Source: a virus
Lineage: Duplodnaviria > Heunggongvirae > Uroviricota > Caudoviricetes
Virus record (IMG/VR): IMGVR_UViG_3300024246_000004
Span: 27,446-91,445 of that record
Length of the DNA stretch: 64,000 nt
Strand: one strand, 5' to 3'
Shown here one piece after another: positions 848 to 31,956 of this stretch (position 1 is the first letter of the stretch; each line of letters opens with the position of its first letter). The notes beneath the pieces were generated by a model, which made no database searches, was not told the origin of the DNA, and worked only from the letters and a program-made list of their open reading frames with translations. A program made the translations under genes and the position numbers.

Positions 848-1092
848 ACTGTTCCCGGCAGCCAACATCGTACCGTTCTCCAAAGTGTGGTCGCTGCCAG
901 CGTGTGGTGTGTCCTTCCGGCGGCCAGCCGTGCGGCGAACCCCATTGTATCTGCACCGTCGGTTGCGATACGTTAGTCTCGCTCGGGTAGCCGGTTCCCA
1001 CACGGCTCCGGCTACCTGGGCAGACCAACTCGCCAAAGGGAACTCGAAACCCTGGAGTTCAACGCGAGGATCTGGTAAAGTACCAAATACGA

Positions 1093-1166
1093 CGCGGGGT
1101 AGAGCAGCTCGGTAGCTCGTTGGGCTCATAACCCAAAAGTCGCAGGTTCAAATCCTGCCCCCGCTA
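1093..1166 (+). tRNA. tRNA-Met(CAT), initiator-like
   Basis: Cloverleaf with anticodon loop CTCATAA; GGG/CCC pairs closing the anticodon stem; unpaired 1:72 (C.U); T-arm GCAGG-TTCAAAT-CCTGC. Confidence 0.7.
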
Positions 1167-1215
1167 CTAACCGTCAGGTTCATAATCTGTCGGTGCGATC
1201 GAATACCTTGACCGC

Positions 1216-1566
1216 ATGCCGTACAAAGATCCAGAGGCCCGTAACGCCTATGCGCGAGCCTGGTACGCGAAGAATCAAGAAACGCATGCAGAGCTCGTGC
1301 GCCGTAACCGGGCGCGAGTAAAGGCTGAGGTGACGGAGTACCTCGGGAAGGTTAAGTCACATCCCTGCACAGATTGTGGCGGAACGTTCGACGCAGAGGT
1401 CATGGATTTCGATCATGTTTCGGGCGTGAAGTCGTTCAACATCAGCTCCGCGAAACAAGTTGGATACAGCCTGAGTCGCGTAAAAAAAGAAGTGGCGAAG
1501 TGCGAGCTAGTGTGCTCGAATTGTCATCGTCTACGCACGAAAGCCCGTAGAACGGCTACCGAATAG
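1216..1566 (+). CDS. HNH homing endonuclease
   Basis: HNH motif ...DFDHVSGVK...CELVCSNCH...; sits between tRNA genes. Confidence 0.75.
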   Translation: MPYKDPEARNAYARAWYAKNQETHAELVRRNRARVKAEVTEYLGKVKSHPCTDCGGTFDAEVMDFDHVSGVKSFNISSAKQVGYSLSRVKKEVAKCELVCSNCHRLRTKARRTATE

Positions 1567-1572
1567 CCTAAT

Positions 1573-1645
1573 TCCCCGTTGGAGTAACTGGCAACGTCAC
1601 CGCGCTCTGGACGCGGAGTTCGAGGTTCGAATCCTCGGCGGGGAG
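1573..1645 (+). tRNA. tRNA-Gln(CTG) (D-arm weak)
   Basis: Acceptor TCCCCGT/GCGGGGA, anticodon arm CCGCG-CTCTGGA-CGCGG, T-arm CGAGG-TTCGAAT-CCTCG. Confidence 0.5.
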
Positions 1646-1746
1646 CGAGTGCAGGGGCAAACGCCTGCCAGCGTGCGTCTCGGGTTCGGAGTAAGGATGG
1701 CAGTCCCCTCCGGATCAGGTGGGCGCCTCAATCAAAGCCCACCACA

Positions 1747-1821
1747 TGGCCCGGTATCCCAACGGAAGTAGGAGCTCGGCTCAGACCCGAGTAATGTGTG
1801 GGTTCGAATCCCACTCGGGCT
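1747..1821 (+). tRNA. Atypical tRNA with anticodon CAG (Leu-type anticodon, short variable arm, A73)
   Basis: Acceptor GGCCCGG/TCGGGCT, conserved D-region TATCCCAACGGAAGTAGGA, anticodon loop CTCAGAC, T-arm GTGGG-TTCGAAT-CCCAC. Confidence 0.5.
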
Positions 1822-1822
1822 A

Positions 1823-1907
1823 CGCGGTTGTGCTGGAATGGGAGACAGGCTGGCTTGAGGTGCCAGTGTCCCGCAAGGGGCGTGGGGGTTCGACTCCCCT
1901 CAACCGC
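1823..1907 (+). tRNA. tRNA-Leu(GAG), long variable arm
   Basis: Acceptor GCGGTTG/CAACCGC, anticodon loop TTGAGGT, variable-arm hairpin GTCCC-GCAA-GGGGC, T-loop TTCGACT. Confidence 0.75.
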
Positions 1908-1982
1908 ACTCCACGGCTAGATTCAGAACGAAACCCAGACACCACGCGCCGTGGCCACTGTCCGCCAACGAAAGGGGAGGTA

Positions 1983-2156
1983 ATGGCTAGGGAACATAAG
2001 GCCGACCTGACCGCCATCAAGGGCGCGCTTCAGGCGAACATCAACATCAAGCTCGCTGAAGCGGAGCTGGACGAGCGCAACGACAACCCCGTCGAGGCCA
2101 GGAACACTCGGCGTATCGCCGCCGAGTGGCAGAAGGTCCACGACGGCACCACCTGA
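1983..2156 (+). CDS. Small hypothetical protein (57 aa)
   Basis: Strong SD AAAGGGGAGG 6 nt before the ATG; the upstream part of the 145-aa track ORF overlaps tRNA genes and is discounted. Confidence 0.5.
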   Translation: MAREHKADLTAIKGALQANINIKLAEAELDERNDNPVEARNTRRIAAEWQKVHDGTT

Positions 2157-2209
2157 TCGGCTCGGCGGCCACATACAGCACGAAACCCAGATACGTGCGC
2201 CGCTGTCCG

Positions 2210-2282
2210 CCCGCATAGTCCAACCGGCAGAGGCACCCGATTTAAGTCCGGGGAGTTGTGCGTTCGAATCGCACTGCGGGCA
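2210..2282 (+). tRNA. Atypical tRNA with anticodon TAA (Leu-type, short variable arm, A73)
   Basis: Acceptor GCCCGCA/TGCGGGC perfect; D-region TAGTCCAACCGGCAGAGG; anticodon loop TTTAAGT closed by an A.C mismatch; T-arm GTGCG-TTCGAAT-CGCAC. Confidence 0.45.
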
Positions 2283-2283
2283 C

Positions 2284-2356
2284 GCCCAGGTATCCCAAGG
2301 GAAGAGGAAGCGGCTTCAAGTACCGCTAGTTGTGGGTTCGAATCCCACTCTGGGCA
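2284..2356 (+). tRNA. Atypical tRNA with anticodon CAA (Leu-type, short variable arm, A73)
   Basis: Acceptor GCCCAGG/TCTGGGC; D-region TATCCCAAGGGAAGAGGA; anticodon loop TTCAAGT closed by a C.A mismatch; T-arm identical to the 1747 element. Confidence 0.5.
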
Positions 2357-2357
2357 C

Positions 2358-2430
2358 GGCCGTGTAGCTCAGCTGGTAGAGCATCCCGCTCATAACGGGA
2401 AGGTCGCAGGATCAAGACCTGCCACGGCTA
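2358..2430 (+). tRNA. tRNA-Met(CAT) elongator-type (or Ile-lysidine)
   Basis: GGCCGTG-TA-GCTC-AGCTGGTAG-AGC; anticodon loop CTCATAA; unusual T-loop ATCAAGA. Confidence 0.65.
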
Positions 2431-2436
2431 CGGTGC

Positions 2437-2480
2437 GACAGCTAGGCTTCCCCCGGGCCCCACGCCCGCCTAGCTGTCGT
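2437..2480 (+). other. Stable hairpin (11-bp stem CGACAGCTAGG / CCTAGCTGTCG)
   Basis: Perfect inverted repeat seen directly in the sequence. Confidence 0.5.
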
Positions 2481-2550
2481 GCTACGCTAACACGGCACCG
2501 CCTGGCGGCCGAGAGTAGCTCGAAACCCGTATAAGTCCCGCCGCCAGTAC

Positions 2551-2575
2551 CGGCTTGTAGCTCAATGGCTCAACG
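2551..2575 (+). pseudogene. tRNA 5-prime-half fragment (acceptor plus D-arm, GGCTTGTAGCTCAATGG...)
   Basis: Matches the 5-prime half of tRNA-Thr-like genes in this array; no anticodon arm, T-arm or acceptor 3-prime strand follows; the HNH gene starts 19 nt downstream. Confidence 0.45.
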
Positions 2576-2593
2576 TTGTGGTAGGGTTGAGCT

Positions 2594-3178
2594 GTGAAGC
2601 AGAGCTGGAATGACGATGATCTGCGCCATGCAGTAGCTCAAGCAACTTCATGGCGTCAGGTCTCTCGTATTCTCGGCCTACAAGGGACCAATCCAACTCG
2701 GCTGCGCACAAGAGCTCAAGTTGCTGGCGTAGATTTCTCGCACTTCAAGGGGAGCAGATCCTTTTCCGATGAAGAGCTTCGGGATGCGGTCGCTGAGTCA
2801 GCAACTCCTTTCGAGGTGCAAAAGCGCCTAGGGAGGGGTGCGTGGCATTCAATTCAGAGGCGCATAAGGGAGTTGGGGCTAGAGTTTGGCCTGCCAGCAC
2901 CTGACTCGCGTCGAAAAAGTCTCAACCTAGTACTGACCCCCAACTCGACCTACCAGTCTGACAGGACACGCAAACGCCTCGTCGAAGCCGGACTAAAGGA
3001 GGAGAGGTGCGAGGGATGCGGCCTGGCGGAATGGCTAAATGGCCCGATACCCCTTCATCTCGACCACATTAATGGCGTGCACAATGATAACCGCCTAGAG
3101 AACCTTCGTATCCTCTGCCCCAACTGCCACTCCCTCACTCCCACGTGGGGAAACCGCAAGCGACCTTTGGCCTCCTAG
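2594..3178 (+). CDS. HNH homing endonuclease (paralog of 5554..6066)
   Basis: C-terminal CEGCG...HLDHINGVHNDNRLENLRILCPNCHSLT; about 50% identical to the 5554 ORF over its length. Confidence 0.75.
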   Translation: MKQSWNDDDLRHAVAQATSWRQVSRILGLQGTNPTRLRTRAQVAGVDFSHFKGSRSFSDEELRDAVAESATPFEVQKRLGRGAWHSIQRRIRELGLEFGLPAPDSRRKSLNLVLTPNSTYQSDRTRKRLVEAGLKEERCEGCGLAEWLNGPIPLHLDHINGVHNDNRLENLRILCPNCHSLTPTWGNRKRPLAS

Positions 3179-3240
3179 CTCAGTGGTAGAGCGCTTCTTT
3201 CACACAGAAGAGGTCCCGAGTCCGATTCTCGGGGAGGCTA
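3169..3240 (+). tRNA. tRNA-Val(CAC)
   Basis: Acceptor GGCCTCC/GGAGGCT; anticodon arm CTTCT-TTCACAC-AGAAG; T-arm CCGAG-TCCGATT-CTCGG; its 5-prime end overlaps the HNH stop codon TAG. Confidence 0.7.
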
Positions 3241-3348
3241 CGCGTCCGCCAACCCTAGAGAACTGCTGCAATGTGGCAGGGCACGGGAGAAGCAGCTCCC
3301 ACGCCCAGGCGGATGCCCCTGGGGCACCTAGGAAGGCCGCTGGGGTTA

Positions 3349-3423
3349 CAGCCTATGGCGCAGCTTGGCAGCGCGCCTGGTCGGGGACCAGGAGGTCGCC
3401 AGTTCAAATCTGGCTAGGCTGAC
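3349..3423 (+). tRNA. tRNA-Pro(GGG)
   Basis: C1-G72 acceptor CAGCCTA/TAGGCTG with A73 (bacterial Pro signature); D-arm GCGC-AGCTTGGCA-GCGC; anticodon loop TCGGGGA; T-arm GCCAG-TTCAAAT-CTGGC. Confidence 0.65.
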
Positions 3424-3476
3424 GTTGTGGTGGTCACGTAGCGTACGAGACCTATACCAAGCACACCGCCACGCAC

Positions 3477-3548
3477 CGCCTCGTAGCTCAGCGGCAGAGC
3501 GCCCGCCCGACACGCGGGAGGCCGGACGATCAACACGTCCCGAGGCGA
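3477..3548 (+). tRNA. tRNA-Val(GAC)
   Basis: CGCCTCG-TA-GCTC-AGCGGCA-GAGC; anticodon arm CCCGC-CCGACAC-GCGGG; unusual T-loop ATCAACA. Confidence 0.6.
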
Positions 3549-3583
3549 CGATCATCGGCAGGATGCGACAGGAGACGGACACC

Positions 3584-3760
3584 ATGGATACGGCAGCAGC
3601 CGAAACGAAGACCGCGCTTTCCACGGGGATCCTGGATGCGCGCGCCGTGCCGCTCGGGCGCCTTGCCCAGGAGGGCAACGGCTCGGAGGGAATGTCCCGC
3701 GTGCTGCCCGGCTTCGACGCCAAGAGGGTCGCGGTCGCGTCGTTCCAGTCCTCGGTCTAG
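3584..3760 (+). CDS. FxsA-like small protein with FXSXX-COOH C-terminus (...ASFQSSV)
   Basis: SD AGGAGA 7 nt upstream; C-terminal F-Q-S-S-V; paralogous to the next ORF. Confidence 0.55.
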   Translation: MDTAAAETKTALSTGILDARAVPLGRLAQEGNGSEGMSRVLPGFDAKRVAVASFQSSV

Positions 3761-3792
3761 CGGTCGCGATCCTCGACAGGAAGCAGTGGGAG

Positions 3793-3960
3793 ATGGACAG
3801 CACGGACGTGCTAGTGTCTGAGGTTCCCGACCTCAGGATGATGAGCCTCGCCGATCTTGCGCGGCTGCATTCGGGGAGGGCTCTGCAGAAGGTCGTCGCG
3901 GAGGCCCTGGAGCCCTCCGCCCGGCAGGTCTCCGTGGCGGCGTTCAACTCGTCCATCTAG
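3793..3960 (+). CDS. FxsA-like small protein with FXSXX-COOH C-terminus (...AAFNSSI)
   Basis: 55 aa; leader-like segment LPDLRMMSLADLARL...ALQKVVAEALE followed by AAFNSSI-COOH, the hallmark of the actinobacterial FXSXX-COOH (FxsA) family. Confidence 0.6.
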   Translation: MDSTDVLVSEVPDLRMMSLADLARLHSGRALQKVVAEALEPSARQVSVAAFNSSI

Positions 3961-3966
3961 TTTCAC

Positions 3967-4040
3967 GCGCCCGTAGCTCAGCGGATAGAGCGCCGCCGTC
4001 CTAAGGCGGGCCGTCGCTGGTTCGAATCCAGCCGGGCGCA
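3967..4040 (+). tRNA. tRNA-Arg(CCT)
   Basis: GCGCCCG-TA-GCTC-AGCGGATAG-AGC; anticodon loop GTCCTAA; T-arm GCTGG-TTCGAAT-CCAGC. Confidence 0.8.
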
Positions 4041-4159
4041 CCGTCTCTGGCCATTGTGGATGCGAAAACCTTGCGGTACCCGCCGGGGGCGTGATACGTT
4101 AATCGAGTCGGCAGCCGAAAAGGGTGCGGAAACCCGGATCTCATCGCCGCCGACGCACG

Positions 4160-4345
4160 ACCGATCGGATCCGCTCCAAGGTTGGACGTCTTCCTGTCTC
4201 GGCCCTTGGCGACCGACCGGCGTACCACAAGCACCACCCGGCGATCGTGGCTCGAACTCGAAGTGAGTCCCGAGTCGCCGGTAGCACGGATCGGCGGCTT
4301 CAAGGTTGGGTTTCTGGACTTCTTAGCCCTTGGCCGTCGATCATA
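4160..4345 (+). repeat. Two ~60-nt direct repeats (about 4160-4215 and 4285-4345) sharing GATCGG...CAAGGTTGG...GCCCTTGGC
   Basis: Seen by eye; each copy contains the CCAAGG/CCTTGG inverted pair; no cloverleaf could be folded. Confidence 0.4.
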
Positions 4346-4417
4346 GGTGGGTAGCTCAACTGGTAGAGCGCAGGTCTCCAAAACCTGTCGTTGGGGGTTC
4401 AAGTCCCTCCCCACCTG
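4345..4417 (+). tRNA. tRNA-Trp(CCA)
   Basis: AGGTGGG-TA-GCTC-AACTGGTAG-AGC; anticodon loop CTCCAAA; T-loop TTCAAGT. Confidence 0.8.
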
Positions 4418-4419
4418 CG

Positions 4420-4491
4420 GTGAGTATGGCCGAGCGGCTTAGGCACCGGTTTGTGGAACCGGGCAGACGGGTTCGACCCCCGTTACTCACA
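4420..4491 (+). tRNA. tRNA-His(GTG)
   Basis: Perfect acceptor GTGAGTA/TACTCAC; anticodon arm CCGGT-TTGTGGA-ACCGG; T-arm ACGGG-TTCGACC-CCCGT; a G at position -1. Confidence 0.65.
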
Positions 4492-4631
4492 CGTTCCGTA
4501 GCGTCAGCCTGGTGAGCGGCTACGGAGTTCGGCGAGCGGCACTGACCAACGTCCCAGTACCCAGAAATGGGGATAGAAACAGTCGCCGAATACACGAACG
4601 ACCTGCCCCGACGCGCACGCGGGCAGGCGGT

Positions 4632-4661
4632 CCGCCGAGCCCGATCACTCGGCGGACCGGG
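4632..4661 (+). other. Strong hairpin (11-bp stem GGTCCGCCGAG / CTCGGCGGACC)
   Basis: Perfect inverted repeat in a non-coding spacer of the tRNA array. Confidence 0.45.
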
Positions 4662-4735
4662 AAGTCTGGCGACGGAGTTGGGCCAGACCGGGCGGGCTGA
4701 CGTGGGTTAGGCCTTCCACAAAGTAAACTGAATAC

Positions 4736-4808
4736 GCGCCTGTAGCTCAGCGGAGAGAGCGCCTCACTACGGATGAGGAGGCCGGGGGTTCGAATCCCTC
4801 CAGGCGCA
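4736..4808 (+). tRNA. tRNA-Arg(ACG)
   Basis: GCGCCTG-TA-GCTC-AGCGGAGAG-AGC; anticodon arm CCTCA-CTACGGA-TGAGG; T-loop TTCGAAT. Confidence 0.85.
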
Positions 4809-4809
4809 C

Positions 4810-5545
4810 GAGCGATCGCCGTAGCTCAAAGGCCCGAGAGGACGCCTTATCGGGAGAGCCCCGCTGTACCCCATTAAGGGTGAACGACGGGAGATCCGGC
4901 CGAACCGGCGACGATCCTCCGGGTGTGCTGTACGCCCGGCCAAAAGAGGGACCATGGCCCTCGGCAGCGGCAAGGAGCGAAGGAAGCCTCATCGGGAGGT
5001 GTCTTGACGGCTGGTGATGTGAATGACGAGCCGTCACGTGGGCGAGGGAGCAGATCACACTGTAGCCCGAGCCCTGGAGGTTCGACCCCTCCCCTTTGCA
5101 CGGCAGGTGGCCGCCAGAACCCTTACCTGGCGGACGGAGAGGCCAACCCGGGACAGTGGTACGCGTAGCGGAATGCTCCCCGAGTAAGATCTCCGTACTC
5201 GTAGTAGCGGGCCCTGCGCTTTGACGGGTGGTCGGTTGAGGCAACCACACCGGAGCGTTTGGGGTCGCTCCCCCTCCGGAGATACTGGTTCGAATCCAGT
5301 CCCGTCAGCGCTCCGGCGATTGCAAGCGCCGGTGATGGACACGCGGGTGCGCACTCGTGTGGAATGGTGTACGTGGAGACGGTACGGATAGGGCCCCCTG
5401 AAGGGCCTGATTCCGGGACGGGCGGGTTCGAGTCCCGCAACACCGCGAACGACAGCCAAACAGGGCCCGGTATCCAACATGGGTGCGCTGTCGGTCATGG
5501 CGCCTTAGCTCAGTTGGAAGAGTCTGTCGGACCTGAGCTATATTG
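4810..5545 (+). ncRNA. Zone of tRNA-like elements and fragments that do not fold into standard cloverleaves
   Basis: Three canonical T-arm motifs (GGAGG-TTCGACC-CCTCC near 5085; ACTGG-TTCGAAT-CCAGT near 5295 with a perfect 7-bp acceptor TGACGGG/CCCGTCA spanning 5223-5313; GGCGGG-TTCGAGT-CCCGC near 5445), plus 5-prime fragments GGCCCGGTATCCAAC (5466) and GGCGCCTTAGCTCAGTTGGAAGAG (5499-5535). Confidence 0.35.
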
Positions 5546-5553
5546 TTTCCCGT

Positions 5554-6066
5554 ATGGCTCGATACAGCAAGAATCGGTGCAGATGGACGGATGAACAACT
5601 CAGGGAAGCGGTCGCCAGCAGTCAATCGATCCGCCAGGTCATCGGGATACTCGGCCTGTCGGTGACGGCGGCCGGGAACTGGGGTACGGTCAAAAAGCAT
5701 GTGAGTCGGCTCGGGCTGGACACCTCCCACTGGACGGGGCAATCCTGGGTGGGAACCCGCGAAAACCACCCGGCACGACTCCCTCTTGAACAGATATTGG
5801 TACCAGGTTCAACGTACAGAACTTCTGCGCTTCGAGACCGCCTCATCGGAGCTGGACTCAAAGAATGGCGATGCGAAAGGTGCTTGCGGATCGACTGGGA
5901 GGGGGATCGCATTCCCCTTGAGGTGGATCATGCGAATGGAGTGCCGGACGACCATAGGATCGAGAATCTGCGCTTGCTCTGCCCCAATTGCCATGCGTTA
6001 ACGCCGACATGGCGCGGGCGCAAGAACGCTAGATCATACCACGGCAACGTAGCTGAGAAGGATTAG
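5554..6066 (+). CDS. HNH homing endonuclease (paralog of 2594..3178)
   Basis: C-terminal CERCL...EVDHANGVPDDHRIENLRLLCPNCHALT; preceded directly by a tRNA 5-prime fragment. Confidence 0.75.
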   Translation: MARYSKNRCRWTDEQLREAVASSQSIRQVIGILGLSVTAAGNWGTVKKHVSRLGLDTSHWTGQSWVGTRENHPARLPLEQILVPGSTYRTSALRDRLIGAGLKEWRCERCLRIDWEGDRIPLEVDHANGVPDDHRIENLRLLCPNCHALTPTWRGRKNARSYHGNVAEKD

Positions 6067-6248
6067 CGAGGCTCTGAAAAAGCCTAGAGGCTGGATCGTT
6101 ACCAGTCGTTGCCACGCGGTACAAGCCTGCAAGAAGGCGAGTGCGCAGCTTCGTGTCATAGGCTGCCGAAGACCGATGGCCCTATCGGATGCCATGCTGG
6201 TCGGCTAAGCGAAGCCGCGTCCCCGGCTCGTACCCGGGGGCCGTACCT

Positions 6249-6339
6249 GGAGAGGTCGCCTAGTCCGGTCTATGGCGCCGACCTGCTAAGTCGGTGGGTT
6301 CCGCAAGGGGCCTCATGGGTTCGAATCCCATCCTCTCCG
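6249..6339 (+). tRNA. tRNA-Ser(GCT), long variable arm
   Basis: GGAGAGG/CCTCTCC; anticodon arm CCGAC-CTGCTAA-GTCGG; T-arm ATGGG-TTCGAAT-CCCAT. Confidence 0.8.
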
Positions 6340-6419
6340 CGCAAAACAGTTGGACAGCCCAGCGTGGATGAGATACGTTAGTTCTCGCAGGGGTTCGAGC
6401 CAGGGATAAGCTAGGCGGG

Positions 6420-6466
6420 CCTGTAAAGCCCTACCTTGGAGGTTCGAATCCTCCCGGGCCCACCAA
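6420..6466 (+). pseudogene. tRNA-like minihelix (acceptor GGGCCTG/CGGGCCC plus T-arm GGAGG-TTCGAAT-CCTCC) lacking D and anticodon arms
   Basis: Only 13 nt lie between the acceptor 5-prime strand and the T-arm. Confidence 0.35.
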
Positions 6467-6488
6467 ACCGAGCGAAAGGAGAGTACTG

Positions 6489-6671
6489 ATGGCCAGCAGA
6501 GAGACCAAGGAGCTCCTCGCGGCACTGGACCGGCACCGGGAGTACACGGCGGAGCAGGAACGGATCGCGCACGACAACCTGTTCCGCGTCACGGACCCCG
6601 TCGAGGGAGCCGTCTCGGTGAAGGACACCGGCAAGATCAAGAGGATCCTCAAGCGAACGCGGAACGGCTAG
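6489..6671 (+). CDS. Small hypothetical protein (60 aa)
   Basis: SD GAAAGGAGAG 7 nt upstream of the ATG. Confidence 0.55.
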   Translation: MASRETKELLAALDRHREYTAEQERIAHDNLFRVTDPVEGAVSVKDTGKIKRILKRTRNG

Positions 6672-6717
6672 CACTACCCGTAGTACGCTAATTGACAACT
6701 CCAGAGTGACGCGAAAT

Positions 6718-6788
6718 GCGGATGTAGCTCAATGGTAGAGCGCTACCTTGCCATGGTAGATACGCGAGTTCGATTCTCGTCATCCGCT
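6718..6788 (+). tRNA. tRNA-Gly(GCC)
   Basis: GCGGATG-TA-GCTC-AATGGTAG-AGC; anticodon loop TTGCCAT; U73. Confidence 0.85.
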
Positions 6789-6888
6789 CAACCCGGCGGC
6801 CAGTCTCAGCTCGAAACCCAGAGACCCAACGTCGCCGGACGAGGTGCCCAAGTACCCTCCGAGACTCAAACTCCTCGCGGCACCGCAT

Positions 6889-6963
6889 GTCCCCGTCGTC
6901 TAGCGGTTCCAGGACATCACCCTCTCAAGGTGAAAATCGCCGGTTCGAATCCGGTCGGGGATA
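6889..6963 (+). tRNA. tRNA-Glu(CTC)
   Basis: Glu-type D-arm GTCTAGCGGTTCCAGGAC; anticodon arm TCACC-CTCTCAA-GGTGA. Confidence 0.8.
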
Positions 6964-7017
6964 CTCTCCGGCAGCCAGAATGAGCAGGAAACCCAAGTAC
7001 AGTTCGCTGCCGGACAT

Positions 7018-7091
7018 GGCCCGTTCGTCTAGCGGCCGAGGATCCCACCCCTTCAAGGTGCGAGGCACGGGTTCGAATCCCGTACGGGCTA
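7018..7091 (+). tRNA. tRNA-Glu(TTC)
   Basis: Glu-type D-arm GTCTAGCGGCCGAGGAT; anticodon loop CCTTCAA; T-arm ACGGG-TTCGAAT-CCCGT. Confidence 0.75.
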
Positions 7092-7154
7092 CGGCGTCGC
7101 GGCCACGGCGACAATCGCGGTAGTGGGCGAGCAAGATGCCCGCACAGTGGCAGT

Positions 7155-7228
7155 GCTGTAGTGGCTCAATATGGCGGAGCGTCGCGCTTCCAACGCGAAG
7201 GTCGCAGGTTCGAACCCTGTCTACAGCG
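7155..7228 (+). tRNA. tRNA-Gly(TCC)
   Basis: GCTGTAG/CTACAGC; anticodon arm TCGCG-CTTCCAA-CGCGA. Confidence 0.8.
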
Positions 7229-7229
7229 C

Positions 7230-7301
7230 CGGAATGTGGGGTAATGGTCGCCCGCCTGCCTTGGGAGCAGGTCCACGCAGGTTCGATTCCTGTCATTCCG
7301 A
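7230..7301 (+). tRNA. tRNA-Pro(TGG)
   Basis: C1-G72 acceptor CGGAATG/CATTCCG with A73; anticodon arm CCTGC-CTTGGGA-GCAGG. Confidence 0.75.
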
Positions 7302-7416
7302 CGATCCAAGGGCAAGGATGAGAAGCGGGAACCCAAGGGTAGCGGACATGGTGAATGTATCTAGCCGAGCCGCTGAACTTTCCGTCGGCCAGATACGCCG
7401 GGGGAGCCGCAATCAA

Positions 7417-7490
<74 letters not shown>

Positions 7491-7500
7491 CGTACACTAT

Positions 7501-7573
7501 GCACCTGTGGCCGAGAGGCGAGGCGCTTCCCTGCAAAGGAAGAATGACCCCGGTTCAAATCCGGGCAGGTGCT
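7501..7573 (+). tRNA. tRNA-Cys(GCA)
   Basis: Perfect acceptor GCACCTG/CAGGTGC with U73; anticodon arm CTTCC-CTGCAAA-GGAAG. Confidence 0.8.
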
Positions 7574-7628
7574 CGATTCGGTGGCCATATACGGTACGAG
7601 ATCCACGCCAAGGCTCGCCACCGGACAC

Positions 7629-7699
7629 GCCCTTGTAGCTCAATGGCAGAGCACTCGTTTCGTAATCGAGGGACCGGCGTCCGATTCGTCGCAGGGGCT
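7629..7699 (+). tRNA. tRNA-Thr(CGT)
   Basis: GCCCTTG-TA-GCTC-AATGGCA-GAGC; anticodon loop TTCGTAA; T-loop TCCGATT. Confidence 0.65.
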
Positions 7700-7753
7700 C
7701 AGATCGGCAGCAATGTAGCTTTCGAAGACCATAACCGGCTCGCTGTCGGTCAT

Positions 7754-7826
7754 GGGGGTGTAGCTCAGGGGTTAGAGCGCTTCCCTGATAAGGAAGAGGT
7801 CGGAGGTTCAAATCCTCCCATCCCCA
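7754..7826 (+). tRNA. tRNA-Ile(GAT)
   Basis: GGGGGTG-TA-GCTC-AGGGGTTAG-AGC; anticodon arm CTTCC-CTGATAA-GGAAG. Confidence 0.85.
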
Positions 7827-7830
7827 CTTA

Positions 7831-7905
7831 GGGCCCGTAGCTCAGTCAGGTTAGAGCAGCTTCCTTTTAAGTAGCGGGTCGCAGGTTCGAATCCTGTCGG
7901 GCCCA
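7831..7905 (+). tRNA. tRNA-Lys(TTT)
   Basis: GGGCCCG/CGGGCCC; anticodon loop CTTTTAA; T-arm GCAGG-TTCGAAT-CCTGT. Confidence 0.75.
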
Positions 7906-7922
7906 CCCGCTAGACTCTTGCT

Positions 7923-8363
7923 GTGATCACCGGTAAGAGCTGTGGCAAGTGCGGTGAAGTGAAGAACCTTGAAGAATTCTCAAGGAACTCGCGTAGAAAA
8001 GATGGCCGCCAAACATGGTGCAAGAAATGTGCCCATGCACGCAGAAATGAATGGGCCAAAGAGAATCGCGATAAATGTCGGACTTACCGCCTCTACGACG
8101 CCCATGGAATCCGTATCGCCGACAAGCAGCGCATGTATGAAGAGCAAGGCGGCCTCTGTGCGGCCTGCCAGAAGAAGGAAGCTGTCGTAGTCGATCACGA
8201 CCATTCCTGCTGCCCCAACAACCGGGGCGGCTGTGGGAAGTGCGTGCGAGCGCTCCTTTGTAACCGCTGCAACCTCCTCGCGGGGTTCTTTGAGACCGAC
8301 CCGGAGGCTTGCGAGAGCGTCCAGGCGTATCTTTTGCGGTACAGTAAGACCAACCCTCCGTAA
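7923..8363 (+). CDS. Endonuclease VII-like (T4 gp49-type) nuclease
   Basis: N-terminal CGKCG Zn motif, central VVDHDHSCCP, then CNRCNLLAG: the signature of the Endonuclease_7 family. Confidence 0.7.
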   Translation: MITGKSCGKCGEVKNLEEFSRNSRRKDGRQTWCKKCAHARRNEWAKENRDKCRTYRLYDAHGIRIADKQRMYEEQGGLCAACQKKEAVVVDHDHSCCPNNRGGCGKCVRALLCNRCNLLAGFFETDPEACESVQAYLLRYSKTNPP

Positions 8364-8426
8364 CTCAGCGGCCAGAGTTGCGCCCTCTTAAGGCGAAGGT
8401 CGCCGGTTCGAATCCGGCCGGGGGGA
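8354..8426 (+). tRNA. tRNA-Lys(CTT)
   Basis: Acceptor CCCTCCG/CGGGGGG; D-arm ACTC-AGCGGCCA-GAGT; anticodon loop CTCTTAA; T-arm GCCGG-TTCGAAT-CCGGC; its 5-prime end overlaps the last codons of the endonuclease VII gene. Confidence 0.6.
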
Positions 8427-8529
8427 CGAGGCGTGCGGCACGCCGCGCGGAGATTAGGGCTAGCCCCCCAGGGGAGCCCCTCCAAAAAGCCAACTCCCTA
8501 TACTAGTTCGGGACGAGGCAGCCGCATAA

Positions 8530-8602
8530 GGGCCCGTAGCTCAGCTGGTAGAGCACTCGCCTCGCACGCGAGAGGTCCGGGGTTCGACTCCCCGCCGGTC
8601 CA
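8530..8602 (+). tRNA. tRNA-Ala(CGC)
   Basis: G3.U70 wobble in the acceptor (Ala identity element); anticodon arm CTCGC-CTCGCAC-GCGAG; T-loop TTCGACT. Confidence 0.75.
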
Positions 8603-8669
8603 CGATGCGTAGCGGCGCGCAACGGGCTAAGTAACCCGGAAGCCATGCTAGCCACTGGCAGCCGCGTAA

Positions 8670-8740
8670 GGGGTTGTAGCTCAACGGTGAGCACCTCGTT
8701 TGCATCGAGGCGGACGCGGGTTCGAATCCCGTCAACTCCA
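8670..8740 (+). tRNA. tRNA-Ala(TGC)
   Basis: G3.U70; anticodon arm CCTCG-TTTGCAT-CGAGG. Confidence 0.8.
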
Positions 8741-8876
8741 CTGGGCGGCATGCGGCATGCCGTGGGGAGCGCAGCTAGGAACTGCGCCGTCTGAATGAAG
8801 ACCACTCCCCGGAAGACGAAGGTAGGCAACCGCAAGGGTCCTAGCCTGAAGTGGGGAATCTGGAGTCAGCCGCATT

Positions 8877-8952
8877 GGGCCTATAGCTCAGCCCGGCAGA
8901 GCGCCCGCTCGGCAGGCGGGAGGTTTCGTCGGTTCGAATCCGACTAGGTCCA
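8877..8952 (+). tRNA. tRNA-Ala(GGC)
   Basis: G3.U70; anticodon arm CCCGC-TCGGCAG-GCGGG; T-arm GTCGG-TTCGAAT-CCGAC. Confidence 0.65.
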
Positions 8953-9160
8953 CTACCGCCGCGTGGTCGGCGGGGAGCGACGCATGTCGGAGATTGCGCG
9001 CTCGCAGGACAAGGCTTACCCGTGTTGGATTCCGACTAGGCACGGGAGGTAGCGTGTCCATCCGCACCGCCCCGCAACGGGCTGCCGGACCGGGTTGTGC
9101 CGGTTAGGCTGCAATACCGAGTGAGTCGCCCGGCACTCGTTAATCCCTACCGGCGAACCT

Positions 9161-9248
9161 GGAGAGGTCGGCCCCGCTGGCGGAGGCACTGTCCTGGAAT
9201 GGCAGCGGCCGTTGATTCGGTTCGTGGGTTCGATTCCCACTCTCTCCG
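9161..9248 (+). tRNA. tRNA-Ser(GGA), long variable arm
   Basis: GGAGAGG/TCTCTCC; anticodon arm CTGTC-CTGGAAT-GGCAG; T-loop TTCGATT. Confidence 0.7.
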
Positions 9249-9547
9249 CGAACTCGGCGACCAGTCTTGGAACGCAGCTCACTCTGCCTTCGTTGCCGAG
9301 TCTCACTGTCCGACAGCCAAGCGGTTCCGCGCACCATGTGCCGGGCGCTGTCGGGCTCCATGCGGGCCCTGGGGAGGTAACCTGACGGTCCACGGTGCAC
9401 CAGCGACCGTCAGCAGCTCCGTCCACTCGGAGCGCCCGCTCGATCGACAGCCATAGTGGCCTCGCACCCCGCGCTCCCTACGCTGTCGAGCTCAACCCGG
9501 TGGCCATAGCGAGAACCCTCCCACAGGACACTCCCGCCGCCGGTCGT

Positions 9548-9621
9548 GGTCCTGTAGAGCAGCTGGAGTGCTCGCCACCCTGTCAAGGTGGAGGTCGCGG
9601 GTTCAAGTCCCGTCAGGACCG
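9548..9621 (+). tRNA. tRNA-Asp(GTC)
   Basis: GGTCCTG/CAGGACC with G73; anticodon arm CCACC-CTGTCAA-GGTGG; T-loop TTCAAGT. Confidence 0.85.
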
Positions 9622-9625
9622 CTAA

Positions 9626-9698
9626 GGCGACGTAGCTCAGCGGATAGAGCGCTTCCCTCCGAAGGAAGAGGCCGTGGGTTCAAATCCCACCGTCGCCA
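9626..9698 (+). tRNA. tRNA-Arg(CCG)
   Basis: GGCGACG/CGTCGCC; anticodon arm CTTCC-CTCCGAA-GGAAG. Confidence 0.8.
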
Positions 9699-9699
9699 C

Positions 9700-9782
9700 G
9701 GAAGGTCCGACACTGGTGCGTCAAGCGTCTTCGAAAGGCGTGGCGGTGAAAGCCGTTAGCGGTTCGAGTCCGCTACCTTCCG
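9700..9782 (+). tRNA. tRNA-Ser(CGA), long variable arm
   Basis: GGAAGGT/ACCTTCC; anticodon loop TTCGAAA; T-arm AGCGG-TTCGAGT-CCGCT. Confidence 0.65.
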
Positions 9783-9834
9783 CTACCAGCAGCCGAGGTC
9801 AACGCGTATCCCAAAATCGTTCTGCTGCTGGTTT

Positions 9835-9918
9835 GGAGAGTTGCCGGAACGGTAACGGCGCCGCCTTGAAAGCGGACGGCAGGGAAACCTGGAGCAGGTT
9901 CGACCCCTGCACTCTCCG
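9835..9918 (+). tRNA. tRNA-Ser(TGA), long variable arm
   Basis: GGAGAGT/ACTCTCC; anticodon loop CTTGAAA; variable-arm hairpin CAGG-GAAA-CCTG; T-loop TTCGACC. Confidence 0.7.
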
Positions 9919-9923
9919 CGCGG

Positions 9924-9994
9924 TCCCCGCTAGTTCAATGGCAGAACGCTCGACTGTTAATCGAGAAGTACCTGGATCGATACCAGGGCGGGGA
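9924..9994 (+). tRNA. tRNA-Asn(GTT)
   Basis: TCCCCGC/GCGGGGA; anticodon arm CTCGA-CTGTTAA-TCGAG; unusual T-loop ATCGATA. Confidence 0.65.
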
Positions 9995-10012
9995 GCATGA
10001 AAGGGGGCGGTT

Positions 10013-10450
10013 GTGGCCCCCTCACATCTCAAGAAGATCGAGGAACTCGGCGCGGCGTGCCACCTGTGCGGCAAGACCGAGAAGCTCGTGCTCCAGGGCC
10101 GCGCTCCCGACGGCGCCCATGTGCATTGGAGTAAGCCGGGGAGCAAGTCTGCGGACGTCGCGTGGCGCGTGATCTGTTTGTTCTGCAAGAACGCTAGGCC
10201 GTCGGGGCCCGAGAAGCACAACTGGGCCGCTTACGTGCACGGTTGCCGGTGTGGTGTGTGCACGAAGGCGATGGCCGACTACGGCTACACACGGCAGCGG
10301 CACCTGAACGGTCCGCCTAAGCGGTACAGGCCGCGCCGGTTGTACGACGATACGGTTCCCCCACCTGAGGAGCGCCCGTTCTGGGGTGTTCCTTCGGACG
10401 TTATCCCGGTTCCGGCAACGGGATGGTGGACGGACCTCGGCAGGGAATGA
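10013..10450 (+). CDS. Cys/His-rich Zn-finger protein, possibly HNH-like
   Basis: GTG start preceded by AAAGGGGGCGG; CHLCGK...CLFCKNARP...HGCRCGVC motifs. Confidence 0.45.
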   Translation: MAPSHLKKIEELGAACHLCGKTEKLVLQGRAPDGAHVHWSKPGSKSADVAWRVICLFCKNARPSGPEKHNWAAYVHGCRCGVCTKAMADYGYTRQRHLNGPPKRYRPRRLYDDTVPPPEERPFWGVPSDVIPVPATGWWTDLGRE

Positions 10451-10519
10451 TACGTTAAGCTTTCGGTGCCCAGAGGACTAACGTCACCCGCTGAACACGC
10501 GGCACCGCGAGGAGCTTCC

Positions 10520-21348: not shown

Positions 21349-21744
21349 TTAGATGTAGCGGGCGTGGGACGGGCGGCGGGCGGGCATCCGCAGGCGCGGC
21401 ATGCTCGGGCGGCTCGCCACCGGCAGGCGGCGGTACCAGCGCACGCCCAGGAACAGGTACACGGGCACGGAGAAGTAGAACGCGGGGAGGATCAGGAACA
21501 GCAGCGAGACTTTCAGCCGCTTCGCTGCGACCGCGTGGCGCTGATTGAACGTCGGGCGCGGCGGGGCCACGGCGAACAGTCCGCGCCCGCCGACCGCGTT
21601 CACCTGGTACCCGGCGGAGGCGAGCAGCATGTGCGCCTGCCCGCTGACCACCGTGTTGGGGAACGCGAGCACGTATCCGCCGTTGGGGGACAGGCTCGCC
21701 TGGTGTGCGATGCCGAGTTCCGCGAGGATCCTCATCTGGGCCAT
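21349..21744 (-). CDS. Membrane protein
   Basis: SD GGAAGGCAACGATC-ATG; hydrophobic segments. Confidence 0.5.
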   Translation of the reverse strand: MAQMRILAELGIAHQASLSPNGGYVLAFPNTVVSGQAHMLLASAGYQVNAVGGRGLFAVAPPRPTFNQRHAVAAKRLKVSLLFLILPAFYFSVPVYLFLGVRWYRRLPVASRPSMPRLRMPARRPSHARYI

Positions 21745-31068: not shown

Positions 31069-31464
31069 TCAGTCCTCTTCCACCCATTGCCCGTTACGGC
31101 GTATCTCGACCTTGATGTCTGTGGCCTGTGCGGGCTTGTCGTTGCGCACCCACCGGCCGCCCTCAAACTTCCAGGCGTATCCCCGGTTCGCGCCCTCGCC
31201 GCCCTCATGCAGTTGGCGGTTCAACCACAGCTTGAACTTCGGGTGCGCCGCCATCCGCTTGAACGCGGCCCTCCGGTTTTGCAGCTGGCTGCGTTCCTCC
31301 CGACTTTCGCCGACCGCACCAGAGGGCTCATGCACGATCCTGATGCCGGTGTTGCGCTTGTTCTGGTTCTGGCCGCCGGGACCGCCGGAGCGGAACTCGT
31401 CCACCCGGCAGTCGCTGATCTTGACACTGAGTACCAGTTTACGTTCGTTCACGCCGCCCATCAT
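31069..31464 (-). CDS. ArfB-like peptidyl-tRNA hydrolase (RF-1 domain, GGQ motif)
   Basis: FRSGGPGGQNQNKRNTGIRIVHEPSG matches the class-I release-factor / ArfB catalytic GGQ region; about 130 aa with a basic C-terminal tail, as in ArfB. Confidence 0.7.
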   Translation of the reverse strand: MMGGVNERKLVLSVKISDCRVDEFRSGGPGGQNQNKRNTGIRIVHEPSGAVGESREERSQLQNRRAAFKRMAAHPKFKLWLNRQLHEGGEGANRGYAWKFEGGRWVRNDKPAQATDIKVEIRRNGQWVEED

Positions 31465-31888: not shown

Positions 31889-31956
31889 CTGAGCAGCGCT
31901 CTGCCTCTGAGCTACCCTGAGTCGCCGCACACCTCCGTGGCGCGTCGGCTCCCACC

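What the first reader, a model, noticed from the sequence alone, without database searches (positions are those of the whole stretch)
3563..3960. Two tandem FXSXX-COOH (FxsA-like) precursor-type peptides inside the tRNA array
ORFs 3584-3760 (...RVAVASFQSSV) and 3793-3960 (...LPDLRMMSLADLARL...ALQKVVAEALEPSARQVSVAAFNSSI) are paralogous. Both end in F-x-S-x-x at the C-terminus, and the second closely resembles the leader plus core layout of the actinobacterial FXSXX-COOH family. In bacteria that family is linked to radical-SAM/SPASM maturases. No maturase is visible in this window. These could be orphan precursors modified by host enzymes, or small regulatory proteins.
Basis: partly seen in the sequence, partly recalled or inferred. 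Interest (0 to 1): 0.7.

Follow-up and report, generated by a model that had tools for sequence, protein, structure and literature searches.

The report
Orphan FxsA peptide genes in phage
Two small genes wedged between tRNA genes of an uncultured actinobacterial phage are genuine copies of a bacterial peptide precursor (FxsA) that in bacteria sits beside its radical-SAM modifying enzyme and immune-type TIR/TPR proteins. The phage carries neither on its 91-kb contig, so it probably relies on the host enzyme, possibly to make or mimic a host conflict-system peptide.

Summary
ORFs 3584-3760 (58 aa, ...VAVASFQSSV) and 3793-3960 (55 aa, ...VSVAAFNSSI) lie between tRNA-Val and tRNA-Arg in a 36-tRNA array. 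GC3 is 0.86 and 0.88.

An HMM built only from bacterial FxsA peptides scores them 37 and 33 bits (E 1.7e-10 and 4e-9). They are the only significant hits among 1,290 six-frame fragments of the window. A profile of the pair retrieves 44 short peptides that all end F-x-S-[SA]-[ILV]-COOH.

- **Bacterial context:** FxsA is followed directly by FxsB (radical SAM/SPASM) in 95 of 101 loci, and usually by TIR-like FxsC and a STAND/TPR protein.
- **Phage context:** none of these genes is on the full 91.4-kb phage contig, but the contig is incomplete.
- **Recurrence:** I found FxsA-like genes without an adjacent maturase in 8 further phage contigs. One distant relative has three tandem copies, also inside a tRNA array.
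- **Constraint:** the core V-A-A-F-x-S-S is kept through synonymous codon changes.
- **Other phages:** three further phage contigs carry their own FxsB-like maturase with a precursor.

Best reading, which is inference: host-matured precursor or ligand mimics that act on the host Fxs TIR/TPR system. This is a new variant of a known kind. The function is untested.

The parts
3584..3760 (+). pepA: FxsA-type (FXSXX-COOH, SjiA-like) precursor peptide, 58 aa. Leader motif is D-x-R-x-x-P-L-x-x-L-A ... RVLPG; core is VAVASFQSSV-COOH.
   Evidence: ORF and sequence. GC3 0.86. NF040585 21.6 bits and TIGR04268 15.8 bits. Bacterial-only HMM 37.1 bits, E 1.7e-10. 51-56% identity to family members.
3793..3960 (+). 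pepB: second, diverged FxsA-type precursor, 55 aa. Core is VSVAAFNSSI-COOH. Its stop codon ends 6 nt before tRNA-Arg.
   Evidence: GC3 0.88. TIGR04268 18.6 bits. Precomputed PF27839 FxSxx-COOH. Bacterial-only HMM 32.8 bits, E 4e-9. About 54% identical to P0007 on another phage-like contig.
3570..3574 (+). Shine-Dalgarno-like AGGAG, 9 nt upstream of the pepA ATG.
   Evidence: Read directly.
3778..3783 (+). Shine-Dalgarno-like AGGAAG, 9 nt upstream of the pepB ATG. A GGGAG at 3788-3792 abuts the ATG.
   Evidence: Read directly.
3477..3549 (+). tRNA-Val(gac), the upstream neighbour. It ends 34 nt before pepA.
   Evidence: ARAGORN; Rfam RF00005.
3967..4042 (+). tRNA-Arg(cct), the downstream neighbour. 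It starts 7 nt after the last base of the pepB stop codon.
   Evidence: ARAGORN; Rfam.
1093..9996 (+). Array of 36 same-strand tRNA genes, interspersed with HNH endonuclease ORFs, that hosts the two peptide genes. It is the likely common transcription unit. No sigma-70-like promoter was found in 900-10500. Six weak terminator-like matches are not more than expected from shuffles; one + strand match (3936-3953) lies at the 3' end of pepB.

Best explanation
**What it is (shown).** These are two diverged tandem copies of the FxsA / FXSXX-COOH precursor peptide of the actinobacterial Fxs system. NCBIfam names this family 'cyclophane-containing RiPP peptide'. An uncultured, high-GC tailed phage carries them as cargo without an adjacent maturase, inside its tRNA array.

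**How it most likely works (inferred).**
1. The genes are transcribed with the tRNA array. Their mRNA is released by tRNA processing.
2. Both peptides keep the family's leader motif and the invariant V-x-V-A-A-F-x-S-S-x-COOH core. The contig has no FxsB. The host's own FxsB radical SAM/SPASM enzyme therefore probably recognises and modifies them.
3. The resulting peptide, with its free C-terminus, then acts on the host partners of FxsA: the TIR-like FxsC and the STAND/TPR 'FxSxx_TPR' protein. Kaur et al. predicted this module to be a conflict (immunity) system.
4. The phage copy either keeps an inhibitory ligand supplied while host expression is shut off, or competes with an activating one. 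Either way this is counter-defence by precursor or ligand mimicry.

Identity as FxsA homologs: about 0.9. The counter-defence mechanism: about 0.4.
For: **Identity.**

**Canonical bacterial context.**
- FxsB lies directly downstream in 95 of 101 loci.
- TIR/STAND homologs are present in 38 of 46 loci that have at least 4.5 kb downstream.
- Locus L158 was verified with curated models: FxsB TIGR04269 at 537 bits plus aKG-HExxH TIGR04267, FxsC NF040588/TIGR04276, and FxSxx_TPR NF040586 at 987 bits.
- Bacterial FxsA stays next to TIR/TPR genes even where FxsB is not adjacent.

**Phage context.**
- There is no FxsB, TIR, STAND or acetyltransferase homolog on the whole 91.4-kb contig. Positive controls for the FxsB HMM scored above 900 bits.
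- FxsA-like genes without adjacent FxsB occur in 8 more phage contigs. Their flanks are phage genes: portal, protease, endolysin, DnaB and Thg1.
- A distant relative (35% identity in a shared 1104-aa protein) has three tandem copies, also inside a tRNA array.

**Selection.** Across 12 phage copies the core residues are invariant but are encoded by 3-4 synonymous codons each.

**Origin of the copies.** Phage copies track different bacterial subfamilies rather than forming one clade. For example, the L015 copy matches 29 of 38 residues of a Kitasatospora FxsA.

**Phages want the product.** Three other phage contigs carry their own FxsB-like maturase plus a precursor. This argues that phages want the modified product.

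**Literature.**
- Kaur et al., eLife 2020 (PMC7159879) predict the FxSxx peptide to be a toxin or signal coupled to a TIR-AP-ATPase-TPR effector.
- A radical-SAM-matured HxS effector is a proven anti-phage system (PMC13128918).

**From my own knowledge.** TPR domains commonly clamp free C-terminal peptides, for example PEX5 with -SKL and Hop with -EEVD. That fits a motif defined by its distance from the carboxylate.

**Genome theme.** The phage invests heavily in translation and tRNA-repair genes, which may have counter-defence roles. A Tad2-like gene lies upstream on the contig.
Against: - The Fxs system has never been shown experimentally to be anti-phage. PADLOC has no Fxs model, and only the N-terminal ATPase region of the TPR protein hits a candidate family.
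- The host is unknown, so I could not show that it has an fxs locus.
- The contig has no terminal repeat and ends inside the head module. The genome is therefore incomplete, and a phage FxsB-like gene could lie in the missing part.
- Scores to the curated TIGR04268 and NF040585 models are below their cutoffs.
- No modification, expression or phenotype data exist.
- If the mature peptide activates the effector, a phage copy would harm the phage unless it is an antagonist.
- None of 50,697 GenBank phage records carries a copy. The trait is therefore rare, or confined to uncultured lineages.
Confidence: 0.4

Rival explanations
1. Phage-beneficial cyclophane peptide with its own target. The two peptides are true RiPP precursors. 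Their modified product acts as a toxin, a signal or a superinfection-exclusion factor for the phage or lysogen, and not on the host Fxs TIR/TPR module. Maturation is done by host FxsB, or by a phage FxsB-like enzyme encoded in the unsequenced part of the genome.
For: - Three IMG/VR phage contigs (L170-L172) encode stand-alone FxsB-like rSAM/SPASM enzymes. They score 310-337 bits on TIGR04269 and are 48-50% identical to each other.
- Each of these enzymes is preceded by a small aromatic-rich ORF. One of them ends FNSDI-COOH.
- The window's contig is incomplete.
- Phage-borne biosynthetic clusters are known, mostly bacteriocins in temperate phages (bioRxiv 10.1101/2020.10.01.322628).
Against: - In all 9 phage contigs that carry canonical FxsA-like peptides, no FxsB-like gene lies next to the peptide or in the DNA fetched. 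That DNA is the whole 91-kb contig here, +/-10 kb for L161 and L189, and shorter stretches for the others.
- In L170-L172 the maturase and precursor are adjacent.
- The core is identical to that of the bacterial peptides, which are genomically tied to TIR/TPR partners.
- No transporter or immunity gene is visible near the peptides.
Confidence: 0.25
2. Enzyme decoy. The unmodified phage precursors are over-expressed to occupy the host FxsB rSAM and HExxH domains. This blocks maturation of the host's own FxsA, so the downstream TIR/TPR system never receives its peptide.
For: - The leader motif needed for recognition is retained.
- Tandem copies (two here, three in L189) and placement in the tRNA array, which is presumably strongly transcribed, suggest a dosage effect.
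- No maturase is on the contig.
Against: - A decoy would not need an intact, invariant core and exact C-terminus. Yet V-A-A-F-x-S-S-x-stop is under clear purifying selection in phage copies.
- Other phages carry their own FxsB-like maturase, which makes no sense for pure enzyme titration.
Confidence: 0.12
3. Passenger DNA. These are host gene fragments captured into a recombination-prone tRNA/HNH region, with no function for the phage.
For: - tRNA arrays with homing endonucleases are hot spots for small accessory ORFs.
- Phage copies resemble different bacterial subfamilies, which is consistent with repeated capture.
Against: - Only the intact peptide ORF is present, never flanking FxsB remnants.
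- Two copies that share only 28-32% identity are both intact and have coding-type GC3.
- The core is conserved at the amino-acid level with synonymous variation across 12 phage copies.
- The same arrangement, tandem copies inside a tRNA array, occurs in a phage that shares only 35% identity in a large protein.
Confidence: 0.08
4. Unmodified small regulatory or structural protein that only shares ancestry with FxsA.
For: It is a small, probably helical leader-like peptide, and there is no enzyme on the contig.
Against: The residues that are conserved are exactly the modification core and the leader motif of the RiPP family. Nothing else is conserved between the copies.
Confidence: 0.05

Closest known systems
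FxsA / SjiA, the FXSXX-COOH cyclophane RiPP precursors of Actinomycetota (NCBIfam TIGR04268, NF040585; Pfam PF27839)
   Same: - Size of 46-89 aa.
- Leader motif D-x-R-x-x-P-L-x-x-L-A ... RVLPG.
- Invariant C-terminal V-x-V-A-A-F-[NQ]-S-S-[ILV]-COOH.
- Tandem duplicate precursors also occur in bacteria (L167).
   Different: - Encoded by a phage, inside a tRNA array.
- No adjacent FxsB, acetyltransferase, FxsC or FxSxx_TPR genes.
- Below the curated NCBIfam score cutoffs.
Peptide-processing module of the VMAP-ternary / TIR-AP-ATPase-TPR conflict systems (Kaur, Burroughs, Iyer, Aravind, eLife 2020, PMC7159879)
   Same: It is the same peptide family. In the bacterial loci I examined, FxsA is followed by rSAM/SPASM, TIR-like and NB-ARC/TPR genes. 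This matches their description.
   Different: That work describes bacterial operons only and predicts the peptide to be a toxin or signal of the host system. A virus-borne copy without the rest of the system is not described there.
Phage-encoded mimics of labile host immunity components, e.g. the pseudo-ToxI RNA of phage PhiTE and T4 Dmd antitoxin substitutes (from my own knowledge, not checked here)
   Same: The proposed logic is the same. The phage supplies its own copy of the small component that keeps an abortive-infection effector silent.
   Different: - Those are RNA or protein antitoxins of toxin-antitoxin systems.
- Here the candidate is a ribosomal peptide that would need post-translational modification by a host enzyme.
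- No experiment supports the analogy yet.
HXS anti-phage system: His-Xaa-Ser repeat effector matured by radical SAM enzymes (Nat Commun 2026, PMC13128918)
   Same: It is a Haft-type 'short motif peptide plus rSAM/SPASM maturase' system with a demonstrated role in phage defence. It serves as a precedent for the class.
   Different: - A different peptide family and different enzymes.
- Gammaproteobacterial, with a periplasmic effector.
- No phage-borne copies are reported.
Triceptides and three-residue cyclophane-forming enzymes (XyeB, GrrM, YhhB, FxsB)
   Same: FxsB belongs to this enzyme group according to the NCBIfam names. The phage contigs L170-L172 carry FxsB/YhhB-like members with precursors.
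   Different: The window itself carries only precursors. The chemistry on the phage peptides is not shown.

Membership tests
FXSXX-COOH / FxsA precursor family (TIGR04268, PF27839, NF040585) | Small peptide (about 45-90 aa) whose last five residues are F-x-S-x-x, followed directly by the stop codon. | tested here: met
   pepA ends FQSSV* and pepB ends FNSSI*. All 44 retrieved short homologs end F-x-S-[SA]-[ILV].
FXSXX-COOH / FxsA precursor family (TIGR04268, PF27839, NF040585) | Score at or above the curated cutoff of the family HMM. | tested here: not met
   TIGR04268 gives 15.8 and 18.6 bits against a cutoff of 28. NF040585 gives 21.6 bits against a cutoff of 75. The E-values are still suggestive: 0.013, 0.0016 and 0.00023. 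The local Pfam copy gave no hit. The collection's precomputed annotation lists PF27839 on pepB only.
FXSXX-COOH / FxsA precursor family (TIGR04268, PF27839, NF040585) | Significant full-length similarity, leader plus core, to bona fide bacterial members that sit next to FxsB. | tested here: met
   - An HMM built from 101 bacterial FxsA peptides gives 37.1 and 32.8 bits. These are the only hits in the window.
- pepA is 51-56% identical to several members.
- 36 of the 45 sequences in alignment A2 (the two window peptides plus 43 retrieved peptides) hit TIGR04268 at E<=0.01.
FXSXX-COOH / FxsA precursor family (TIGR04268, PF27839, NF040585) | Genomic linkage to the FxsB radical SAM/SPASM maturase. 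| tested here: not met
   There is no FxsB-like ORF in the window or on the whole 91,433-bp contig. The best HMM E-value is 2.5. FxsB is adjacent in 95 of 101 bacterial loci. The contig is incomplete.
FXSXX-COOH / FxsA precursor family (TIGR04268, PF27839, NF040585) | Post-translational cyclophane cross-link in the F-x-S motif. | not testable with these tools
   This needs mass spectrometry or NMR of the peptide from infected cells, or co-expression with FxsB.
Complete Fxs system (FxsA-FxsB-FxsC-FxSxx_TPR) | Presence of TIR-like FxsC (NF040588/TIGR04276) and the STAND/TPR protein (NF040586). | tested here: not met
   phmmer with the L158 FxsC, TPR protein and acetyltransferase finds nothing on the phage contig. 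The same queries hit 53-58 of 111 bacterial loci.
Anti-defence (counter-immunity) protein | Demonstrated or catalogued inhibition of a defence system. | not testable with these tools
   There is no match in PADLOC, and PADLOC holds defence genes, not anti-defence genes. Fxs itself is not a validated defence system.

The most novel reading that the evidence does not exclude
Actinophages carry maturase-less copies of a host RiPP precursor. The host's own radical-SAM enzyme converts them into a mimic of the peptide ligand of a TIR/STAND-TPR immune module, which silences that module. This would be the first viral 'orphan RiPP precursor' used as an immune-evasion factor. It would also be the first functional handle on the Fxs system.
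Probability: 0.3. Interest if true: 0.85.

Novelty: new variant of a known kind. Interest (0 to 1): 0.62.

Why it matters
- **An open question about the bacterial system.** The FXSXX-COOH system is a curated NCBIfam/TIGRFAM family, and NCBIfam names FxsB a cyclophane-forming maturase. In the papers I could search, its biological role is only a prediction: a peptide toxin or signal coupled to TIR/AP-ATPase/TPR effectors (PMC7159879).
- **What the phage copies imply.** Phages repeatedly keep just the precursor, under purifying selection, in two or three tandem copies inside tRNA arrays. This suggests the peptide is at the centre of a phage-host conflict.
- **It gives a direct experiment.** Express the phage peptides in an fxs+ actinomycete, or delete them from a phage, and measure FxsC/TPR-dependent outcomes.
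- **It widens two fields.** It extends the known repertoire of phage auxiliary genes to RiPP precursors that depend on host enzymes. It also shows that some phages carry FxsB-like cyclophane synthases of their own, a new source of peptide-modifying enzymes.

Tried and rejected
**Searches that found nothing**
- DNA similarity of 3400-4100 to GenBank phages matched only the tRNAs.
- tblastn of pepA, pepB, a Streptomyces-type FxsA and the L015 phage peptide against 50,697 phage records gave no credible hit.
- The word-indexed protein search with pepB found only itself.
- The IMG/VR search with pepB alone found nothing.
- The 45-sequence alignment was too variable for the locus finder. A back-translated DNA pattern plus my own HMM worked instead.
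- The JGI metagenome scan used to walk the contig found only a short unrelated-sample relative. I walked the contig with two protein searches instead.

**Maturase and partner genes**
- A CxxxCxxC motif scan of all six frames found no plausible radical-SAM ORF.
- Among the 32 IMG/VR pattern matches, 26 were chance matches.

**Alternative readings of the region**
- The promoter and terminator scan showed nothing above shuffled expectation.
- Rfam showed no RNA family in the ORFs.

**Leads that did not pan out**
- The minviopeptin paper on an ADP-ribosylated triceptide looked promising for a TIR link. It concerns an unrelated Mucilaginibacter cluster.
- The six bacterial FxsA loci without adjacent FxsB were examined as possible prophages. 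At least two are simply FxsA-TIR or FxsA-TPR variants.
- I rejected the idea that phage copies form one clade derived from a single capture. Each is about as close to bacterial copies as to other phage copies.
Full report
**1. The observation**

- pepA is 3584-3760: 58 aa, MDTAAAETKTALSTGILDARAVPLGRLAQEGNGSEGMSRVLPGFDAKRVAVASFQSSV.
- pepB is 3793-3960: 55 aa, MDSTDVLVSEVPDLRMMSLADLARLHSGRALQKVVAEALEPSARQVSVAAFNSSI.

They lie between tRNA-Val(gac) 3477-3549 and tRNA-Arg(cct) 3967-4042, inside an array of 36 same-strand tRNA genes at 1093-9996. The pepB stop codon ends 6 nt before the tRNA.

Several features mark them as coding:
- Third-position GC is 0.86 and 0.88 in a window of 65.8% GC.
- Each ORF has a Shine-Dalgarno-like AGGAG or AGGAAG 9 nt before the ATG.
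- Rfam sees only the flanking tRNAs.
- No sigma-70-like promoter was found across 900-10500. Six weak terminator-like matches are not more than expected from shuffles. One of them lies on the + strand at 3936-3953, at the 3' end of pepB.

Co-transcription with the tRNAs, with the mRNA released by tRNA processing, is the simplest reading. That is inference.

The two peptides are homologous. BLASTP gives E 3e-4 and 28% identity; MAFFT gives 32%.

**2. Family identity**

The curated models hit below their cutoffs:
- TIGR04268 gives 15.8 bits for pepA and 18.6 bits for pepB, against a cutoff of 28.
- The SjiA model NF040585 gives 21.6 bits end to end on pepA, against a cutoff of 75.

The local Pfam copy gave nothing. 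The protein collection's precomputed annotation lists PF27839 'FxSxx-COOH' on pepB.

I ran a profile of the two peptides against 1.84 billion representative proteins. It returned 48 hits at E<=1e-3. Forty-four are peptides of 46-89 aa whose match runs to the last residue, and all end F-x-S-[SA]-[ILV]. In the alignment of these peptides with the two window peptides:
- pepA is 51-56% identical to several of them.
- R and F are invariant; D, L, S and S are nearly invariant.
- 36 of the 45 sequences hit TIGR04268 at E<=0.01.

As an independent test I collected FxsA peptides from bacterial genomes with a back-translated C-terminal pattern. This gave 120 loci, mainly Kitasatospora, Micromonospora and Streptosporangiaceae. 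I built an HMM from 101 unique bacterial peptides only and searched all 1,290 six-frame fragments of the window. pepA scored 37.1 bits (E 1.7e-10) and pepB 32.8 bits (E 4e-9). The next fragment scored 12 bits.

The alignments cover the leader motif (vPL..La, RvLP) as well as the core. By sequence, both peptides are FxsA homologs.

**3. What FxsA normally sits next to**

- In 95 of 101 bacterial loci with enough downstream sequence, a roughly 800-aa FxsB gene follows directly on the same strand.
- Of 46 loci with at least 4.5 kb downstream, 38 also contain homologs of the TIR-like and STAND/TPR proteins.
- One metagenomic bacterial locus, L158, carries a peptide 53% identical to pepA. I checked it with curated models:
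  - FxsB: TIGR04269 at 537 bits, plus the aKG-HExxH domain TIGR04267.
  - An AAC(3)-like acetyltransferase.
  - FxsC: TIR-like, NF040588 and TIGR04276.
  - 'FxSxx-COOH system tetratricopeptide repeat protein': NF040586 at 987 bits, with an N-terminal KGGVGR ATPase.
- The same operon appears around P0015 and P0003. The P0003 locus has two tandem FxsA genes.
- Where FxsB is not adjacent, a TIR or TPR gene still is. This holds for the P0009 contig, L100 and L134.

This matches Kaur et al. (PMC7159879). They place FxSxx peptides in a peptide-processing module coupled to TIR-AP-ATPase-TPR effectors of predicted conflict systems. [quoted passage not shown] No experimental proof of an anti-phage role exists in the literature I could search. 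PADLOC has no Fxs model. A different rSAM-matured motif effector, HXS, is a proven anti-phage system (PMC13128918).

**4. The phage and the missing maturase**

The window is the reverse complement of positions 1-64000 of ENA contig ERZ27256701:k141_554652, which is 91,433 bp long. I recovered the remaining 27.4 kb and assembled the whole contig.

It is a tailed phage:
- Its terminase large subunit is at most 43% identical to any GenBank phage.
- It has portal and head genes.
- It has Rad52 and SSB.

On the whole contig:
- An FxsB HMM that scores bacterial FxsB above 900 bits, and phage FxsB-like enzymes above 300 bits, finds nothing. The best E-value is 2.5.
- No real ORF carries a radical-SAM CxxxCxxC motif.
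- There is no FxsC, TPR or acetyltransferase homolog.

The caveat is that the contig has no terminal repeat and stops inside the head module. The genome is incomplete.

**5. The same thing occurs in other phages**

A DNA-pattern scan of IMG/VR, followed by HMM filtering, found true FxsA-like ORFs in six viral contigs. An alignment-based scan added L169. The pepB-like representative P0007 sits on a 104-kb phage-like contig, L161.

The flanking genes are phage genes:
- portal and head protease in L018;
- endolysin and exonuclease in L029;
- DnaB and RNase H in L017;
- Thg1 in L015.

None of these loci has FxsB next to the peptide or in the DNA fetched.

Four of the nine phage contigs have the peptide gene within 1 kb of tRNA genes. 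In L189 (IMGVR_UViG_3300045003_000080, 119.8 kb) three tandem copies lie inside a tRNA array. The last copy ends about 10 nt before tRNA-Ala. That phage shares with ours only a 35%-identical 1104-aa protein.

Across the 12 phage copies the residues V, A, A, F, S and S of the core are invariant or nearly so. Each is encoded by 3-4 different synonymous codons, including TCN and AGC for serine. This shows purifying selection on the peptide.

Phage copies do not form a clade. Each is about as similar to bacterial copies as to other phage copies. The L015 copy matches 29 of 38 residues of a Kitasatospora FxsA. This fits repeated capture from hosts, or tracking of hosts.

No copy was found in 50,697 GenBank phage records with four queries.

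**6. Phages with their own maturase**

I scanned IMG/VR with an FxsB alignment. Three contigs of 101-132 kb (L170-L172) encode stand-alone rSAM/SPASM proteins of 373-407 aa:
- Their best NCBIfam match is FxsB TIGR04269 at 310-337 bits (cutoff 370). YhhB is next.
- They are 48-50% identical to each other.
- They are 36-39% identical to the rSAM half of FxsB.

Each is preceded by a small aromatic-rich ORF. In L171 this ORF is 57 aa, contains FNNAI and FQSKI, and ends FNSDI-COOH. These precursors do not hit the FxsA HMM.

Some phages therefore make cyclophane-type peptides on their own. This argues that phages want the modified product, not merely to block an enzyme.

**7. Mechanism**

What is shown:
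- pepA and pepB are FxsA homologs on a phage.
- They are tandem and lie inside a tRNA array.
- The 91-kb contig has no maturase and no TIR/TPR partner.
- The trait recurs in other phages and is under selection.

What is inferred:
- Host FxsB modifies them, because they keep the leader and the core.
- The product, whose defining feature is a fixed distance to the free carboxylate, engages the host FxSxx_TPR/FxsC module. From my own knowledge, TPR domains often clamp C-terminal peptides.
- The effect is to silence or misdirect that module.

I give this about 0.4. The rivals are:
- an autonomous phage-beneficial peptide, possibly with a maturase in the unsequenced part (0.25);
- a pure enzyme decoy (0.12);
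- passenger DNA (0.08);
- an unmodified small regulator (0.05).

**8. Novelty**

The peptide family, its maturase and its TIR/TPR neighbours are known. Virus-borne copies without an adjacent maturase, and their placement in tRNA arrays, are not described in the literature I could search. The same holds for phage FxsB-like enzymes. I rate this a new variant of a known kind, of moderate to high interest. It offers a concrete way to test what the Fxs system does.

Noticed in passing
window 39443-40428 (- strand): The phage encodes a ribosomal protein pair arranged like rplM-rpsI. L13 (39901-40428) hits Pfam PF00572 at E 1.8e-44. S9 (39443-39898) hits PF00380 at E 1.4e-43.
   Followed up: partly
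window 31069-31464 (-), 46390-47553 (-), 49599-50576 (-), 52263-53390 (-), 53401-54231 (-): A translation and tRNA-repair toolkit: an RF-1-domain (ArfB-like, GGQ) protein; a T4 Rnl1-like RNA ligase; a Thg1 tRNA-His guanylyltransferase; a second RNA ligase with a PHA02142 OB domain; and a metallophosphoesterase. Together with the 36 tRNAs, this suggests defence against tRNA-targeting host nucleases.
   Followed up: partly
window 21554-21655 (-) and 31849-31921 (-): Two isolated tRNA calls on the minus strand, far from the array. One is an unusually long (102 nt) tRNA-Gly(tcc). The other is a second tRNA-Ile(gat). They may contain an intron or be false positives.
   Followed up: no
window 1216-1566, 2594-3178, 5554-6066, 7923-8363 (+): Endonuclease-type ORFs are interspersed among the tRNA genes. 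The ORFs at 2594-3178 and 5554-6066 hit Pfam HNH. The ORF at 7923-8363 corresponds to the gene annotated Endonuclease_7 on the contig. The ORF at 1216-1566 gave no Pfam hit and only looks HNH-like by its Cys/His pattern. Homing endonucleases may explain how cargo enters the array.
   Followed up: partly
L004 4110-4394 (same contig, about 6 kb upstream of window start); also L161 18203-18475: A Tad2-like (PF11195) gene is present on the window's contig and on the P0007 phage contig. From my own knowledge, Tad2 proteins sequester TIR-made signals. The co-occurrence with FxsA-like genes may be a coincidence.
   Followed up: no
L171 5832-7104; L172 5658-7107; L170 946-2509: Three IMG/VR phage contigs carry stand-alone FxsB/YhhB-like cyclophane-type rSAM/SPASM enzymes. 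Each has an upstream aromatic-rich precursor ORF. The L171 precursor has FNNAI, FQSKI and a C-terminal FNSDI. They look like phage-encoded triceptide-like modules.
   Followed up: partly
L004 6677-9991 (just upstream of window start) and L189 15839-17572: A 1104-aa protein with no Pfam or PADLOC hit lies next to the tRNA region. It is the only sizeable protein shared (35% identity) between this phage and the L189 phage, which also has FxsA copies in its tRNA array.
   Followed up: no
L100 4038-5216; L134 6185-7064; the contig carrying P0009: These are bacterial FxsA genes without an adjacent FxsB but directly followed by a TIR or TPR gene. The peptide-TIR/TPR link can persist without local maturase linkage.
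   Followed up: partly
L161 12048-13247 and 15959-17341: Two IS605 OrfB/TnpB (Cas12f-like) genes lie on the phage-like contig that carries P0007.
   Followed up: no
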